DNA from: a virus
Taxonomy: Duplodnaviria; Heunggongvirae; Uroviricota; Caudoviricetes
Length of the DNA: 18,852 nt
Direction: 5' to 3' (one strand)
Virus record (IMG/VR): IMGVR_UViG_2671180338_000001
Part shown: positions 11,713-16,608 of the stretch, piece by piece
Numbering within the stretch: position 1 is the stretch's first letter
How the letters are laid out: each line of letters opens with the position of its first letter
Position numbers and translations under genes: made by a program
Notes under the pieces: model-generated
What the model was told of the DNA's origin: nothing
The model's database searches: none
What the model saw: only the letters and a program-made list of their open reading frames with translations

Positions 11713-14266
11713 ACCGGTAGGCGATCTGGTCGTTGATTTGAGTCTGGATGCGGCCAGATTTGACGAGCAGATGGCCAGAGTCAGGCGTCATTTTTCCGGT
11801 ACGGAAAGTGATGCGAAAAAAACAGCGGCAGTCGTTGAACAGTCGCTGAGCCGACAGGCGCTGGCTGCACAGAAAGCGGGGATTTCCGTCGGGCAGTATA
11901 AAGCCGCCATGCGTATGCTGCCTGCACAGTTCAACGACGTGGCCACGCAGCTTGCAGGGGGGCAGAATCCCTGGCTGATCCTGCTGCAACAGGGTGGTCA
12001 GGTTAAGGACTCCTTCGGCGGGATGATCCCCATGTTCAGGGGGCTTGCCGGCGCGATCACCCTGCCGATGGTGGGGGCCACCTCGCTGGCGGTGGCGACC
12101 GGTGCGCTGGCGTATGCCTGGTATCAGGGCAACTCAACCCTGTCCGATTTCAACAAAACGCTGGTCCTTTCCGGTAATCAGGCGGGACTGACGGCAGATC
12201 GTATGCTGGTCCTGTCCAGAGCCGGGCAGGCGGCAGGGCTGACGTTTAACCAGACCAGCGAGTCACTCAGCGCACTGGTTAAGGCGGGGGTAAGCGGTGA
12301 GGCTCAGATTGCGTCCATCAGCCAGAGTGTGGCGCGTTTCTCCTCTGCATCCGGCGTGGAGGTGGACAAGGTCGCTGAAGCCTTCGGGAAGCTGACCACA
12401 GACCCGACGTCGGGGCTGACGGCGATGGCACGCCAGTTCCATAACGTGACGGCGGAGCAGATTGCGTATGTTGCTCAGTTGCAGCGTTCCGGCGATGAAG
12501 CCGGGGCATTGCAGGCGGCGAACGAGGCCGCAACGAAAGGGTTTGATGACCAGACCCGCCGCCTGAAAGAGAACATGGGCACGCTGGAGACCTGGGCAGA
12601 CAGGACTGCACGTGCATTCAAATCCATGTGGGATGCGGTGCTGGATATTGGTCGTCCTGATACCGCGCAGGAGATGCTGATTAAGGCAGAGGCTGCGTTT
12701 AAGAAAGCAGACGACATCTGGAATCTGCGCAAGGATGATTATTTCGTTAACGATGAAGCACGGGCGCGTTACTGGGATGATCGTGAAAAAAAACGCCTGG
12801 AGCGGGATGCAGCCCAAAAGAGGGTAGATCAACAGCGTCAACAGGACAAAAATGCGCAGCAGCAGAGCGATACCGAAGCGTCACGGCTGAAATATACCGA
12901 AGAGGCGCAGAAGGCTTACGAACGGCTGCAGACGCCGCTGGAGAAATATACCGCCCGTCAGGAAGAACTGAACAAGGCACTGAAAGACGGAAAAATCCTG
13001 CAGGCAGATTACAACACGCTGATGGCGGCGGCGAAAAAGGATTATGAAGCGACGCTGAAAAAGCCGAAACAGTCCGGCGTGAAGGTGTATGCGGGCGATC
13101 GTCAGGAAGACAGTGCTCATGCGGCCCTGCTGACGCTTCAGGCAGAACTCCGGACGCTGGAGAAGCATGCCGGAGCGAATGAGAAAATCAGCCAGCAGCG
13201 CCGGGATTTGTGGAAGGCAGAAAGTCAGTTCGCGGTACTGGAGGAGGCGGCACAACGTCGCCAGCTGTCCGCACAGGAGAAATCCCTGCTGGCGCATAAA
13301 GACGAGACGCTGGAGTACAAACGCCAGCTGGCTGCACTTGGTGACAAGGTTACGTATCAGGAGCACCTGAATGCGCTGGCGCAGCAGGCGGATAAATTCG
13401 CACAGCAGCAACGGGCAAAACGGGCAGCCATTGATGCGAAAAACCGGGGGCTGACTGACCGGCAGGCAGCGCGGGAAGCCACGGAACAGCGCCTGAAGGA
13501 ACAGTATGGCGATAATCCTCTGGCGCTGAATAACGTCATGTCAGAGCAGAAAAAGACCTGGGCGGCTGAAGACCAGCTTCGCGGGAGCTGGATGGCAGGC
13601 CTGAAGTCCGGCTGGAGTGAGTGGGAAGAGAGCGCCACGGACAGTATGTCACAGGTTAAAAGTGCAGCCACGCAGACCTTTGATGGTATTGCACAGAATA
13701 TGGCGGCGATGCTGACCGGCAGTGAACAGAACTGGCGCAGCTTCACCCGCTCCGTGCTGTCCATGATGACAGAAATTCTGCTTAAGCAGGCAATGGTGGG
13801 GATTGTCGGGAGTATCGGCAGCGCCATTGGCGGGGCTGTTGGTGGCGGCGCATCCGCGTCAGGTGGTACAGCCATTCAGGCCGCTGCGGCGAAATTCCAT
13901 TTTGCAACCGGGGGATTTACGGGAACCGGCGGCAAATATGAGCCAGCGGGGATTGTTCACCGTGGTGAATTTGTCTTCACGAAGGAGGCAACCAGCCGGA
14001 TTGGCGTGGGGAATCTCTACCGGCTGATGCGCGGCTATGCGGAAGGTGGTTATGTGGGCGGTGCCGGAAGTCCGGCGCAGATGCGGCGGGCTGAAGGCAT
14101 TAATTTTAATCAGAACAATCACGTGGTGATTCAGAACGACGGTACGAATGGTCTGCCAGGTCCACAGATGATGAAGGCCGTGTATGACATGGCCCGCAAG
14201 GGTGCCCGTGATGAAATTCAGACACAGATGCGTGATGGTGGCCAGTTCTCCGGAGGTGGACGATGA
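11705..14266 (+). CDS. H: tail tape measure protein gpH
   Basis: 853 aa, same length as lambda gpH; ATG at 11705 overlaps the T stop; long helical region and Gly-rich C-terminal segment (GSIGSAIGGAVGGGASASGG). Confidence 0.96.
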   Translation: MAEPVGDLVVDLSLDAARFDEQMARVRRHFSGTESDAKKTAAVVEQSLSRQALAAQKAGISVGQYKAAMRMLPAQFNDVATQLAGGQNPWLILLQQGGQVKDSFGGMIPMFRGLAGAITLPMVGATSLAVATGALAYAWYQGNSTLSDFNKTLVLSGNQAGLTADRMLVLSRAGQAAGLTFNQTSESLSALVKAGVSGEAQIASISQSVARFSSASGVEVDKVAEAFGKLTTDPTSGLTAMARQFHNVTAEQIAYVAQLQRSGDEAGALQAANEAATKGFDDQTRRLKENMGTLETWADRTARAFKSMWDAVLDIGRPDTAQEMLIKAEAAFKKADDIWNLRKDDYFVNDEARARYWDDREKKRLERDAAQKRVDQQRQQDKNAQQQSDTEASRLKYTEEAQKAYERLQTPLEKYTARQEELNKALKDGKILQADYNTLMAAAKKDYEATLKKPKQSGVKVYAGDRQEDSAHAALLTLQAELRTLEKHAGANEKISQQRRDLWKAESQFAVLEEAAQRRQLSAQEKSLLAHKDETLEYKRQLAALGDKVTYQEHLNALAQQADKFAQQQRAKRAAIDAKNRGLTDRQAAREATEQRLKEQYGDNPLALNNVMSEQKKTWAAEDQLRGSWMAGLKSGWSEWEESATDSMSQVKSAATQTFDGIAQNMAAMLTGSEQNWRSFTRSVLSMMTEILLKQAMVGIVGSIGSAIGGAVGGGASASGGTAIQAAAAKFHFATGGFTGTGGKYEPAGIVHRGEFVFTKEATSRIGVGNLYRLMRGYAEGGYVGGAGSPAQMRRAEGINFNQNNHVVIQNDGTNGLPGPQMMKAVYDMARKGARDEIQTQMRDGGQFSGGGR

Positions 14267-14592
14267 AAACCTTCCGCTGGAAAGTGAAACCCGGTATGGA
14301 TGTGGCTTCGGCCCCTTCTGTAAGAAAGGTGCGCTTTGGTGATGGCTATTCCCAGCGAGCGCCTGCCGGGCTGAATGCCAACCTGAAAACGTACAGCGTG
14401 ACGCTTTCTGTCCCCCGTGAGGAGGCCATGGTACTGGAGTCGTTTCTGGAAGAGCACGGGGGCTGGAAAGCCTTTCTGTGGACGCCGCCTTATGAGTGGC
14501 GGCAGATAAAGGTGACCTGCGCAAAATGGTCGTCGCGGGTCAGTATGCTGCGTGTTGAGTTCAGCGCAGAGTTTGAACAGGTGGTGAACTGA
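14263..14592 (+). CDS. M: tail tip assembly protein gpM
   Basis: 109 aa MKTFRWKVKPGMDVASAPSVRKVRFGDGYSQRAP...; ATGA overlap with H stop; matches lambda M. Confidence 0.94.
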   Translation: MKTFRWKVKPGMDVASAPSVRKVRFGDGYSQRAPAGLNANLKTYSVTLSVPREEAMVLESFLEEHGGWKAFLWTPPYEWRQIKVTCAKWSSRVSMLRVEFSAEFEQVVN

Positions 14593-15290
14593 TGCAGGAT
14601 ATCCGGCAGGAAACACTGAATGAATGCACCCGTGCGGAGCAGTCGGCCAGCGTGGTGCTCTGGGAAATCGATCTGACAGAGGTCGGTGGAGAACGTTATT
14701 TTTTCTGTAATGAGCAGAACGAAAAAGGTGAGCCGGTCACCTGGCAGGGGCGACAGTATCAGCCGTATCCCATTCAGGGGAGTGGTTTTGAACTGAATGG
14801 CAAAGGCACCAGTACGCGCCCCACGCTGATGGTTTCTAACCTGTACGGTATGGTCACCGGGATGGCGGAAGATCTACAGAGTCTGGTCGGCGGAACGGTG
14901 GTCCGGCGTAAGGTTTACGCCCGTTTTCTGGATGCGGTGAACTTCGTCAACGGAAACAGTGACGCCGATCCGGAGCAGGAGGTGATCAGCCGCTGGCGCA
15001 TTGAGCAGTGCAGCGAACTGAGCGCGGTGAGTGCCTCTTTTGTACTGTCCACGCCGACGGAAACAGATGGCGCTGTTTTTCCGGGACGTATCATGCTGGC
15101 CAACACCTGCACCTGGACCTATCGCGGCGATGAGTGCGGTTATCACGGTCCGGCGGTCGCGGATGAATATGACCAGCCAACGTCCGACATCACGAAGGAT
15201 AAATGCAGCAAATGCCTGAGTGGCTGTAAGTTTCGCAATAACGTCGGCAACTTTGGCGGCTTCCTTTCCATTAACAAACTTTCGCAGTAA
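14592..15290 (+). CDS. L: tail tip protein gpL
   Basis: 232 aa MQDIRQETLNECTRAEQSASVVLWEIDL...; ATGA overlap with M stop at 14590-14592; C-terminal Cys cluster (CTWTYRGDECGYHG...CSKCLSGC) consistent with the metal-cluster region of lambda gpL. Confidence 0.95.
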   Translation: MQDIRQETLNECTRAEQSASVVLWEIDLTEVGGERYFFCNEQNEKGEPVTWQGRQYQPYPIQGSGFELNGKGTSTRPTLMVSNLYGMVTGMAEDLQSLVGGTVVRRKVYARFLDAVNFVNGNSDADPEQEVISRWRIEQCSELSAVSASFVLSTPTETDGAVFPGRIMLANTCTWTYRGDECGYHGPAVADEYDQPTSDITKDKCSKCLSGCKFRNNVGNFGGFLSINKLSQ

Positions 15291-15295
15291 ATCCC

Positions 15296-16039
15296 ATGAC
15301 AGAGACAGAATCAGCGATTCTGGCGCACGCCCGGCGATGTGCTCCAGCGGAGTCGTGCGGCTTCGTGGTAAGAACGCCGGAGGGGGAAAGATATTTCCCC
15401 TGCGTGAATATCTCCGGTGAGCCGGAGGCGTATTTCCGTATGTCGCCGGAAGACTGGCTGCAGGCAGAGATGCAGGGTGAGATTGTGGCACTGGTCCACA
15501 GCCACCCCGGTGGTCTGCCCTGGCTGAGTGAGGCCGACCGGCGGCTGCAGGTGCAGAGTGATTTGCCGTGGTGGCTGGTCTGCCGGGGGGCGATTCACAA
15601 GTTCCGCTGTGTGCCACATCTTACCGGGCGGCGCTTTGAGCACGGGGTGACGGACTGTTACACGCTGTTCCGGGATGCTTACCATCTGGCGGGGATTGAG
15701 ATGCCGGATTTTCATCGTGAGGATGACTGGTGGCGTCACGGTCAGAATCTCTATCTGGATAATCTGGAGGCCACAGGGCTGTATCAGGTGCCGTTGTCAG
15801 CGGCGCAGCCGGGCGATGTGCTGCTGTGCTGTTTTGGTTCATCGGTGCCGAATCATGCCGCCATTTACTGTGGTGACGGCGAGCTGCTGCACCATATTCC
15901 TGAACAACTGAGCAAACGAGAGAGGTATACCGACAAATGGCAGCGACGCACACACTCCCTCTGGCGTCACCGGGCATGGCACGCATCTGCCTTTACGGGG
16001 ATTTGCAACGATTTGGCCGCCGCATCGACCTTCGTGTGA
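15296..16039 (+). CDS. K: tail tip assembly protein gpK (JAMM/MPN metalloprotease-like N-terminal domain plus NlpC/P60-like C-terminal domain); canonical lambda-equivalent start is the internal ATG at 15440
   Basis: Open frame of 247 codons from ATG 15296, 6 nt after the L stop. The last 199 codons (from ATG 15440, MSPEDWLQAEMQGEIVALVHSHPGG...) correspond to lambda K as classically annotated. HSHPGGLPWLSEAD gives HxHx7Sx2D, and the only suitable upstream Glu (E19 in APAESCGF) lies in the 48-codon extension. C-terminal part has Cys (TDCYTLF) and His (NHAAIY, LHH) typical of NlpC/P60. Start assignment is uncertain: a GGAGG lies 11 nt upstream of 15440, none before 15296. Confidence 0.85.
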   Translation: MTETESAILAHARRCAPAESCGFVVRTPEGERYFPCVNISGEPEAYFRMSPEDWLQAEMQGEIVALVHSHPGGLPWLSEADRRLQVQSDLPWWLVCRGAIHKFRCVPHLTGRRFEHGVTDCYTLFRDAYHLAGIEMPDFHREDDWWRHGQNLYLDNLEATGLYQVPLSAAQPGDVLLCCFGSSVPNHAAIYCGDGELLHHIPEQLSKRERYTDKWQRRTHSLWRHRAWHASAFTGICNDLAAASTFV

Positions 16040-16608
16040 AAACGGGTGCCGAAGCCATCCGGGCGATGGCCACACAGCTCCCTGCGTTTCGTCAGAAGCT
16101 GAGCGACGGCTGGTATCAGGTGCGTATTGCCGGGCAGGATGTTAGCACGTCCGGATTAACGGCGCAGTTACATGAGGCTCTGCCTGACGGCGCTGTGATT
16201 CATATTGTTCCCAGAGTCGCCGGGGCCAAGTCAGGTGGTGTATTCCAGATTGTCCTGGGAGCAGCCGCCATTGCCGGATCATTCTTTACCGCCGGAGCCA
16301 CCCTTGCAGCATGGGGGGCTGCCATTGGTGCCGGTGGTATGACCGGCATTCTGTTTTCTCTCGGTGCCAGTATGGTGCTCGGCGGTGTGGCTCAGATGCT
16401 GGCACCGAAAGCCAGAACTCCCCGCACACAGACAACGGATAACGGTAAGCAGAACATCTATTTCTCCTCACTGGATAACATGGTTGCCCAGGGCAATGTT
16501 ATGCCTGTTCTGTATGGTGAAATGCGCGTGGGGTCACGTGTGGTATCTCAGGAGATCAGCACGGCAGACGAAGGGGACGGTGGTCAGGTTGTGGTGATTG
16601 GTCGCTGA
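15937..16608 (+). CDS. I: tail tip assembly protein gpI
   Basis: 223 aa MAATHTLPLASPGMARICLYGDLQRFGRRIDLRVKTGAEAIRAM...; starts inside the 3-prime end of K in another frame, as in lambda; Gly/Ala-rich hydrophobic central segment. Confidence 0.94.
   Translation: MAATHTLPLASPGMARICLYGDLQRFGRRIDLRVKTGAEAIRAMATQLPAFRQKLSDGWYQVRIAGQDVSTSGLTAQLHEALPDGAVIHIVPRVAGAKSGGVFQIVLGAAAIAGSFFTAGATLAAWGAAIGAGGMTGILFSLGASMVLGGVAQMLAPKARTPRTQTTDNGKQNIYFSSLDNMVAQGNVMPVLYGEMRVGSRVVSQEISTADEGDGGQVVVIGR

What the first reader, a model, noticed from the sequence alone, without database searches (positions are those of the whole stretch)
15296..15442. Tail gene K has a 48-codon in-frame N-terminal extension that completes a JAMM/MPN metalloprotease motif
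The classically annotated lambda K (199 aa) corresponds here to the ORF from ATG 15440. In this window the frame is open a further 48 codons upstream to ATG 15296, 6 nt after the L stop. The motif HSHPGGLPWLSEAD (HxHx7Sx2D) is in the canonical part, but the Glu that JAMM enzymes need about 45-50 residues upstream is only present in the extension (E19, codon 15350-15352, in HARRCAPAESCGFVV). The 247-aa protein would be a complete JAMM domain fused to an NlpC/P60-like domain; the 199-aa form would lack the catalytic Glu. From memory of lambda coordinates, this window appears to carry 1 extra nucleotide relative to lambda somewhere between the L stop and the canonical K start (L maps at offset 1163 while K, I and J map at 1164), which could explain why the extension is open here but not annotated in the reference.
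Basis: partly seen in the sequence, partly recalled or inferred. Interest (0 to 1): 0.5.

Follow-up and report, generated by a model that had tools for sequence, protein, structure and literature searches.

The report
Full-length lambda tail protease gene K
Tail-assembly gene K of this lambda-like phage does start 48 codons earlier than the classic lambda annotation, giving a complete two-protease protein; this is normal for the family and already known, and the short 199-aa version comes from one G missing in the 1982 lambda reference sequence.

Summary

- **The ORF.** ORF 15296..16039 (+, 247 aa) starts 5 nt after the stop of gene L.
- **Domains.** The full protein matches Pfam Prok-JAB over profile positions 4-103 of 114 (52.6 bits, cutoff 25), plus NlpC/P60. 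The 199-aa form keeps only JAB positions 63-103 and scores below the cutoff.
- **Motif.** E19, H68-S-H70, S78 and D81 form the canonical JAMM motif. E19 and the surrounding PxExCG are among the best-conserved positions in relatives down to 33% identity.
- **The indel.** The lambda reference (J02459/NC_001416) lacks one G after nt 14266 (window 15430), which splits the gene. Every independently sequenced lambda derivative carries the G, as do 87 of 87 other loci examined. The no-G junction has no exact match in three large collections.
- **The 199-aa calls.** These come either from copying the reference or from gene callers choosing the internal ATG, which follows a GGAGG. That ATG and GGAGG are not conserved in relatives.
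- **Prior knowledge.** The JAB + NlpC/P60 architecture was published in 2006. RefSeq annotates 247 aa in prophages. [quoted passage not shown]

The useful message is that the RefSeq and UniProt lambda K entries are truncated.

The parts
14592..15290 (+). Gene L (minor tail/tail tip protein, 232 aa). Its TAA stop at 15288-15290 lies 5 nt before the K start.
   Evidence: ORF list; Pfam Phage_tail_L, E = 1e-100.
15296..16039 (+). Full-length gene K: 247 aa, a JAB/JAMM domain plus an NlpC/P60 domain.
   Evidence: ORF. Pfam PF14464 at 52.6 bits and PF00877 at 49.2 bits, both above their cutoffs. Intact in 87 of 87 non-reference loci. The exact protein is already in public databases on at least 1000 contigs.
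15296..15439 (+). The 48-codon N-terminal 'extension'. It forms helix alpha1 (residues 3-15) and strands beta1-beta2 (21-27, 30-36) of the JAB domain.
   Evidence: AlphaFold2 model, mean pLDDT 96.7. Alone it hits Prok-JAB profile positions 3-41. Codon-position variation 8/3/23. P17, E19, C21, G22, N38 and F47 are at least 90% conserved in 48 diverse relatives.
15350..15352 (+). Codon for E19, the JAMM catalytic Glu within PAESCG.
   Evidence: Invariant in 88 of 88 close sequences and 167 of 170 wider relatives. Aligned with the Glu of PNEACG (2KKS), PEEGCG (2KCQ) and VEVCG (PfJAMM1, 5LDA).
15430..15430 (+). The G that is absent from the lambda reference J02459/NC_001416 (after reference nt 14266).
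   Evidence: Alignments. The no-G 31-mer has 0 hits in the viral, genome and metagenome collections. With the G it has at least 120 hits in the viral and metagenome collections. The MutaMouse lambda-gt10 transgene shows '14266 C>CG' (PMC6760142).
15424..15442 (+). GGAGG (15424-15428) followed 11 nt later by the internal ATG (15440-15442, Met49). This is the classical 199-aa K start.
   Evidence: Sequence. Gene callers pick it even when the upstream frame is open. It is not conserved: at 70-90% identity residue 49 is Ile in 22 proteins against Met in 17, and residues 43-45 are mostly PTM.
15497..15538 (+). Zinc-site motif H68-S-H70-x7-S78-x2-D81.
   Evidence: Sequence. H68, H70 and D81 are invariant, S69 and S78 at least 90% conserved, in 48 diverse relatives. 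The motif definition is in PMC300881 (abstract shown).
15626..15967 (+). NlpC/P60 papain-like peptidase domain (residues 111-224), with C121 (15656-15658), H187 (15854-15856) and H199/H200.
   Evidence: Pfam PF00877, profile positions 1-105 of 105. H187 is invariant; C121, H199 and H200 are at least 90% conserved. Fold and profile matches to MepS/Spr, CwlO, 4HPE and 9UBF.
15937..16608 (+). Gene I (223 aa), the probable substrate. Its N-terminal Lambda_tail_I (ubiquitin-like) domain spans residues 14-97 (15976-16227). The gene overlaps the 3' end of K by 103 nt in another frame.
   Evidence: ORF. Pfam PF06805, E = 3.4e-27. The ubiquitin-like assignment and predicted processing by K are from PMC1779556. 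Cleavage was reported in PMC12908700.

Best explanation
Gene K encodes one 247-aa, two-domain assembly protease translated from ATG 15296. That start sits 5 nt after the stop of L and has no Shine-Dalgarno of its own, so it is probably reached by termination-reinitiation coupling (inferred).

Residues 1-105 or so form a minimal JAMM/JAB zinc isopeptidase. E19 is the catalytic Glu, H68, H70 and D81 are zinc ligands, and S78 completes the motif. Residues 111-224 or so form an NlpC/P60 papain-like cysteine peptidase (C121, H187, H199/H200), followed by a C-terminal helix.

The first 48 residues supply helix alpha1, strands beta1-beta2 and the catalytic Glu. The classical 199-aa product would therefore carry only a dead fragment of the JAB domain.

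By the family's published model, the JAB domain removes the ubiquitin-like N-terminal domain of the neighbouring tail-tip protein gpI during tail-tip assembly. K itself does not stay in the virion.

The 199-aa 'lambda K' in RefSeq and UniProt is an annotation artefact. The 1982 reference sequence lacks one G after nt 14266, which breaks the frame 10 nt upstream of an internal ATG that happens to follow a GGAGG.
For: Shown here:
- Pfam Prok-JAB covers profile positions 4-103 of 114 at 52.6 bits in the 247-aa form, against 63-103 at 22.9 bits (below the cutoff of 25) in the 199-aa form.
- The JAMM motif can be read directly from the sequence.
- E19 aligns with the Glu of solved JAB proteins.
- The AlphaFold2 model (pLDDT 96.7) places residues 3-36 as alpha1, beta1 and beta2 of the domain.
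- The best fold match is PfJAMM1 (5LD9/5LDA, the latter solved with the ubiquitin-like SAMP2; rmsd 2.6 A over 109 columns). 2KKS, AMSH, CSN5 and Rpn11 follow, with NlpC/P60 enzymes matching the C-terminal half.
- The representative search found 2776 relatives. Full-length ones at 34-60% identity start within about 3-15 residues of the position aligned to query residues 2-10.
- P17, E19, C21, G22, N38 and F47 are at least 90% conserved.
- Substitutions in the extension are dominated by the third codon position.
- The ORF is intact in 87 of 87 non-reference loci.
- The G is present in lambda imm434, PV340536, KT232076, LC730321 and DE3.
- The no-G junction is absent from all three large collections and from 5,426 E. 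coli genomes.

From the literature:
- The lambda-gt10 transgene in MutaMouse has '14266 C>CG' relative to the reference.
- TAPK was described as JAB + NlpC/P60 and predicted to process the ubiquitin-like TAPI.
- gpK was not detected in virions by mass spectrometry or cryo-EM.
Against: - The lambda ribosome-profiling paper and the Casjens-Hendrix review were not held in the library.
- ATG 15296 has no recognisable Shine-Dalgarno sequence, whereas ATG 15440 has GGAGG 11 nt upstream.
- Automated callers and several curated GenBank records still use 199 aa, or 211 aa from a GTG.
- The cleavage of gpI by gpK is known to me only from a conference summary, not a full paper.
- Two GenBank records match the reference version. 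One is an UNVERIFIED engineered strain and the other has reference-identical coordinates, so they are weak counter-evidence.
Confidence: 0.92

Rival explanations
1. Both products are made. In addition to full-length K, internal initiation at ATG 15440 behind GGAGG yields a 199-aa NlpC/P60-only isoform with its own role.
For: GGAGG lies 11 nt upstream of ATG 15440. Met49 is present in 22 of 25 proteins at 90% identity or more. Gene callers prefer this start.
Against: The GGAGG is made of the codons for P43-E44 plus the first base of codon 45, so coding alone explains it. At 70-90% identity residue 49 is Ile in 22 of 43 proteins and residues 43-45 are mostly PTM, which carries no GGAGG. Below 50% identity residue 49 is Ile in 61 of 95. 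The feature is therefore not conserved in the family. No expression data are available.
Confidence: 0.1
2. The classical annotation is right. K is the 199-aa protein, and the upstream 144 nt are non-coding or a separate small ORF.
For: The RefSeq and UniProt lambda entries (TIPK_LAMBD, 199 aa). A good Shine-Dalgarno sequence precedes the internal ATG.
Against: The extension alone matches the JAB profile. It carries the most conserved residues of the family. It shows a coding substitution pattern in the K frame. It is contiguous with K in every sequence except the reference. Without it the JAB domain lacks alpha1, beta1, beta2 and the catalytic Glu.
Confidence: 0.02
3. The sequenced laboratory lambda really lacks the G, as a genuine frameshift. 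In that strain K would be expressed as two pieces or by ribosomal frameshifting.
For: J02459/NC_001416 and two later GenBank records show the no-G version.
Against: Lambda imm434, lambda imm21 and h434 imm21 (302-base span), DE3, KT232076, PV340536, LC730321 (48,503 bp) and the lambda-gt10 transgene all have the G. The no-G junction has 0 exact matches in 2.9 million viral contigs, 32 million genome contigs and 241 million metagenome records. None of the 4,332 E. coli genomes with a match shows it. The two concordant records are an UNVERIFIED engineered strain and an assembly with reference-identical coordinates. K is required for tail assembly.
Confidence: 0.03

Closest known systems
Lambda gpK / TAPK family (tail tip assembly protein K; 'C40 family peptidase' in RefSeq)
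   Same: About 96-97% DNA identity to lambda across the region. Same L-K-I-J gene order. Same JAB + NlpC/P60 architecture as described by Iyer et al. 2006. The exact protein is already in databases.
   Different: Nothing biological. It differs only from the truncated 199-aa reference annotation, which results from the missing G after nt 14266.
Minimal prokaryotic and archaeal JAMM/JAB isopeptidases (PfJAMM1 5LD9/5LDA, a desampylase acting on the ubiquitin-like SAMP2; 2KKS; 2KCQ)
   Same: Same fold (Foldseek E = 3e-5, rmsd 2.6 A, TM 0.66 normalised to the target). Same E...HxH...S..D motif with the Glu aligned. Both are paired with a beta-grasp, ubiquitin-like partner.
   Different: The NCBIfam desampylase equivalog scores only 29.2 bits against a cutoff of 130, so K is not a member of that orthologous group. 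Here the domain is fused to an NlpC/P60 domain. The presumed substrate is a ubiquitin-like domain fused within gpI, not a conjugated modifier.
Eukaryotic JAMM deubiquitinases (Rpn11, CSN5, AMSH)
   Same: MPN fold and catalytic motif.
   Different: Identity is low (12-23%). The eukaryotic enzymes are larger and carry insertions (TM normalised to the target 0.25-0.49). They act within large complexes on isopeptide-linked ubiquitin or Nedd8.
NlpC/P60 (C40) peptidases such as MepS/Spr and CwlO
   Same: The Pfam domain is matched over its full length. The Cys and His positions are conserved (H187 invariant; C121, H199 and H200 at least 90%). The fold matches.
   Different: Those enzymes cut peptidoglycan cross-links in the envelope. 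K is a cytoplasmic assembly factor that is absent from virions. The substrate of its C40 domain is unknown.

Membership tests
JAMM/MPN+ metalloprotease (Pfam Prok-JAB PF14464) | Profile match above the curated cutoff over the whole domain | tested here: met
   52.6 bits against a cutoff of 25, profile positions 4-103 of 114, for the 247-aa form. The 199-aa form scores 22.9 bits over positions 63-103 only.
JAMM/MPN+ metalloprotease (Pfam Prok-JAB PF14464) | Motif E-x(n)-H-S/T-H-x7-S-x2-D | tested here: met
   E19, H68-S69-H70, S78 and D81 read from the sequence. Conserved in relatives. The motif definition is in PMC300881.
JAMM/MPN+ metalloprotease (Pfam Prok-JAB PF14464) | MPN fold | tested here: met
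   AlphaFold2 pLDDT 96.7. Foldseek top hits are PfJAMM1, 2KKS, AMSH, CSN5 and Rpn11. This rests on a prediction, not a solved structure.
JAMM/MPN+ metalloprotease (Pfam Prok-JAB PF14464) | Zinc binding and (iso)peptidase activity | not testable with these tools
   Only a conference summary reports gpK cleaving gpI (PMC12908700).
JAMM/MPN+ metalloprotease (Pfam Prok-JAB PF14464) | Genomic association with a ubiquitin-like (beta-grasp) partner | tested here: met
   Gene I, directly downstream, matches Lambda_tail_I PF06805 at residues 14-97. The beta-grasp assignment comes from PMC1779556. I did not model its fold here.
NlpC/P60 (C40) peptidase, PF00877 | Profile match above the cutoff | tested here: met
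   49.2 bits against a cutoff of 23, profile positions 1-105 of 105.
NlpC/P60 (C40) peptidase, PF00877 | Catalytic Cys and His residues conserved | tested here: met
   H187 is invariant; C121, H199 and H200 are at least 90% conserved in 48 diverse relatives. C121, H187 and H200 are invariant in 88 close sequences.
NlpC/P60 (C40) peptidase, PF00877 | Peptidase activity and substrate | not testable with these tools
   No data. The substrate of this domain in K is unknown.
Lambda gpK (tail tip assembly protein K) | Position between L and I in a lambda-type tail module, and high identity to lambda K | tested here: met
   Gene order M-L-K-I-J with the matching Pfam families. The window is 96.6% identical to lambda over about 18.8 kb.
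NCBIfam desampylase NF041370 (equivalog) | Score above the curated cutoff | tested here: not met
   29.2 bits against a cutoff of 130. It is related, but not a member of that orthologous group.

The most novel reading that the evidence does not exclude
In the lambda-proper clade only, the GGAGG plus Met49 inside K might drive internal initiation. One reading frame would then yield both the full JAB + NlpC/P60 protease and a 199-aa NlpC/P60-only isoform with a separate role. One purely speculative possibility for that role is processing of another tail protein, such as the tape measure gpH to gpH*, whose protease is not named in the papers I read.
Probability: 0.08. Interest if true: 0.4.

Novelty: already known. 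Interest (0 to 1): 0.25.

Why it matters
The biology is established, so the value here is corrective. The most widely used phage reference entries (NC_001416 NP_040598.1; UniProt TIPK_LAMBD) describe a K protein that lacks the first 48 residues and the catalytic Glu of its deubiquitinase-like domain.

The truncated model is still being used:
- A 2020 tail-device review analysed '199 residues' and saw only one peptidase domain.
- A 2025 expression library lists NP_040598.1 as gpK.
- Some gene callers reproduce the 199-aa start on DNA where the frame is open.

Anyone who clones, models or mutates lambda K from the reference will be working with an inactive JAB fragment.

Tried and rejected
- **Papers not held.** Casjens & Hendrix 2015 and the Liu et al. 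2013 lambda ribosome-profiling paper could not be fetched. There is therefore no direct translation evidence, and I found no explicit published statement linking the +G to the K start.
- **Literature searches for the coordinate.** These turned up only the MutaMouse variant table, which does not interpret the change.
- **A 2025 lambda mutation-rate preprint.** It mentions 8 ancestral differences from NC_001416 but does not list them in the main text.
- **Promoter and terminator scan of 15100-15600.** No promoter-like site, and one weak terminator-like hairpin inside L that I regard as chance.
- **NCBIfam.** Only sub-threshold hits.
- **Real lambda polymorphism or programmed frameshift.** Rejected because the no-G version is absent from all collections and from all independently sequenced derivatives.
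- **A conserved internal-start isoform.** Rejected as a family feature because Met49 and GGAGG disappear at 70-90% identity. It cannot be excluded for lambda itself.
- **Other ORFs across the region.** The minus-strand ORFs (for example 14874..15617) and the +2-frame ORF 15220..15420 are mechanical listings. The third-position substitution pattern supports the K frame.

Full report
**1. What is in the sequence**

The window holds the left arm of a lambda-type phage or prophage. It is 96.6% identical to lambda and up to 97.5% identical to other Lambdavirus records.

Gene L occupies 14592..15290. Five nucleotides later, ATG 15296 opens a 247-codon frame that ends at 16039. The ATG used for K in the classical lambda annotation is codon 49 of this frame, at 15440. 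The protein reads E19-x48-H68-S-H70-x7-S78-x2-D81. That is the JAMM motif E-x(n)-H-S/T-H-x7-S-x2-D as defined in PMC300881 (abstract shown).

**2. Does the extension complete the domain?**

Yes.
- The 247-aa protein matches Pfam Prok-JAB (PF14464) over profile positions 4-103 of 114 at 52.6 bits (cutoff 25). It also matches NlpC/P60 (PF00877) over that whole profile.
- The 199-aa form retains only JAB profile positions 63-103 at 22.9 bits, below the cutoff.
- The 48 residues alone hit JAB profile positions 3-41.
- PDB 2KKS aligns its PNEACG with the window's PAESCG.
- A profile built from 48 diverse relatives also hits 2KCQ ('Mov34/MPN/PAD-1 family') and Pyrococcus JAMM1, with the Glu aligned in each.
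- An AlphaFold2 model built on that alignment is very confident (mean pLDDT 96.7, pTM 0.91). Residues 3-15 form helix alpha1 and residues 21-27 and 30-36 form strands beta1-beta2 of the domain.
- The best fold match is PfJAMM1 (5LD9/5LDA, the latter solved with the ubiquitin-like SAMP2; rmsd 2.6 A). 2KKS, AMSH, CSN5 and Rpn11 follow. The C-terminal half matches NlpC/P60 enzymes.

**3. Is the extension coding, and is ATG 15296 the start?**

- All 87 non-reference loci I could examine have the 247-codon frame intact. These comprise 80 IMG/VR loci, resequenced lambdas, an E. coli prophage and a Logan contig.
- Across 77 distinct sequences, variable sites in codons 2-48 fall 8/3/23 by codon position. 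This resembles 12/5/27 and 18/14/47 in the rest of the gene. E19, H68, H70, S78, D81, C121, H187 and H200 never vary.
- An exhaustive search of 1.84 billion cluster representatives found 2776 relatives. Full-length ones at 34-60% identity (about 230-260 aa) align from query residues 2-10 to their own residues 3-15. The family N-terminus therefore coincides with the upstream ATG.
- In an alignment of 48 such proteins (33-59% identity), P17, E19, C21, G22, N38 and F47 are at least 90% conserved. All lie in the extension. Met49 is mostly Ile.

What remains inferred is the initiation mechanism. ATG 15296 has no Shine-Dalgarno sequence and lies 5 nt after the stop of L, which suggests translational coupling.

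**4. The indel**

The window has G at 15430. NC_001416 and J02459 lack it: GAGGC-TATTTCC, i.e. after reference nt 14266, 10 nt before the annotated K ATG. In the reference, an ORF from ATG 14133 encodes MTQTESAIL...GEPEA and then drifts out of frame.

Independently sequenced lambda derivatives all carry the G:
- lambda imm434 (OM418626), shown in the alignment;
- lambda imm21 and lambda h434 imm21, inferred from their 302-base span against the reference 301-mer;
- PV340536, KT232076, LC730321 (48,503 bp) and DE3;
- the lambda-gt10 transgene of MutaMouse, listed as '14266 C>CG' (PMC6760142, Table 5).

The exact 31-mer without the G has no match in 2.9 million viral contigs, 32 million genome contigs or 241 million metagenome records. 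Among 5,426 complete E. coli genomes, the best match to the reference stretch is 99.7% over 302 bases, which means the G is present.

The only other records that match the reference are an 'UNVERIFIED' engineered strain and an isolate with reference-identical coordinates. The most economical reading is an error in, or a private change of, the 1982 sequence.

**5. Why 199 aa keeps reappearing**

- Some curated records with the G still copy the 199-aa annotation (OM418626, EU078592). KT232076 uses a GTG start that gives 211 aa. PV340536 and RefSeq prophage annotations use 247 aa.
- Large 199-aa clusters exist in the protein collection. In 4 of the 5 underlying contigs the upstream frame is open and encodes the JAB N-terminus, so the gene caller simply chose the ATG behind GGAGG. 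The fifth contig has a TAT>TAG change at Tyr46.
- The GGAGG is built from the P43-E44 codons plus the first base of codon 45. At 70-90% identity, residue 49 is Ile in 22 of 43 proteins and residues 43-45 are mostly PTM. E19 is kept in 167 of 170 proteins.

An internally initiated isoform is therefore not a conserved feature of the family, although it cannot be excluded for lambda itself.

**6. Function and prior knowledge**

- Iyer, Burroughs and Aravind (2006) described TAPK as JAB + NlpC/P60. They identified the ubiquitin-like beta-grasp domain at the N-terminus of TAPI (gpI). They predicted that the JAB domain releases it by cutting after its C-terminal glycine (PMC1779556).
[quoted passage not shown] Cleavage occurred only after gpI had joined other tail-tip proteins (PMC12908700).
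- gpK was not found in virions by mass spectrometry or cryo-EM.
- In the window, gene I (15937..16608) follows K and matches Lambda_tail_I at residues 14-97.
- The exact window protein, and the corrected 247-aa lambda K, are each already on at least 1000 public contigs. One source names the latter 'Predicted metal-dependent protease of the PAD1/JAB1 superfamily'. The 199-aa form is UniProt TIPK_LAMBD.

**7. Verdict**

Interest is low to moderate.

The practical point is that the canonical lambda K entries are truncated and are still being used that way. A 2020 review analysed '199 residues' and found a single peptidase domain. A 2025 expression library lists NP_040598.1 as gpK.

Noticed in passing
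window 15937-16608 (gene I); alternative GTG start at 16036: The start of gene I is also annotated inconsistently. The reference and PGAP use the ATG that gives 223 aa. PV340536, KT232076 and metagenome gene callers use a GTG overlapping the K stop, which gives 190 aa. Pfam Lambda_tail_I, the ubiquitin-like domain, matches residues 14-97 of the 223-aa form. The 190-aa call therefore removes about 20 residues of that domain. Met14 (15976) is another possible start.
   Followed up: partly
window about 1300 (lambda nt 137/138, between cos and nu1): There is a second one-base discrepancy with the lambda reference. The reference reads AGCGAGGC where the window reads AACG-GGC. The MutaMouse lambda-gt10 table lists '137 AG>A'. 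This explains the window-to-lambda offset pattern of 1164, then 1163, then 1164. The site is non-coding.
   Followed up: partly
window 15937-16039: K and I overlap by 103 nt in different frames. The overlapped part of K encodes a confidently predicted C-terminal helix (residues 230-243). It carries an F.AI.ND-like motif shared by some distant relatives, so both frames appear to be constrained.
   Followed up: no
L334 (ENA ERZ28660271 scaffold, 1.2 kb), about 9 nt upstream of the called 199-aa start: This is the one contig with a real interruption of the extension, TAT>TAG at Tyr46. It could be a decaying prophage or an assembly error in a short scaffold.
   Followed up: no
proteins P0024, P0031, P0039, P0042, P0047 (L-K) and P0015, P0032, P0086, P0116 (K-I): The database contains fused L-K proteins (PF05100 + PF14464 + PF00877) and K-I proteins (+ PF06805), mostly as singletons. 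They may be frameshift or assembly artefacts. Some may be real fusions of the kind Iyer et al. mention for some prophages.
   Followed up: no
E. coli genome collection: K-like DNA at 80% identity or more is present in 4375 of 5426 complete E. coli genomes. The median is 3 copies per genome and the maximum is 14, so this tail module is very widespread among E. coli prophages.
   Followed up: no
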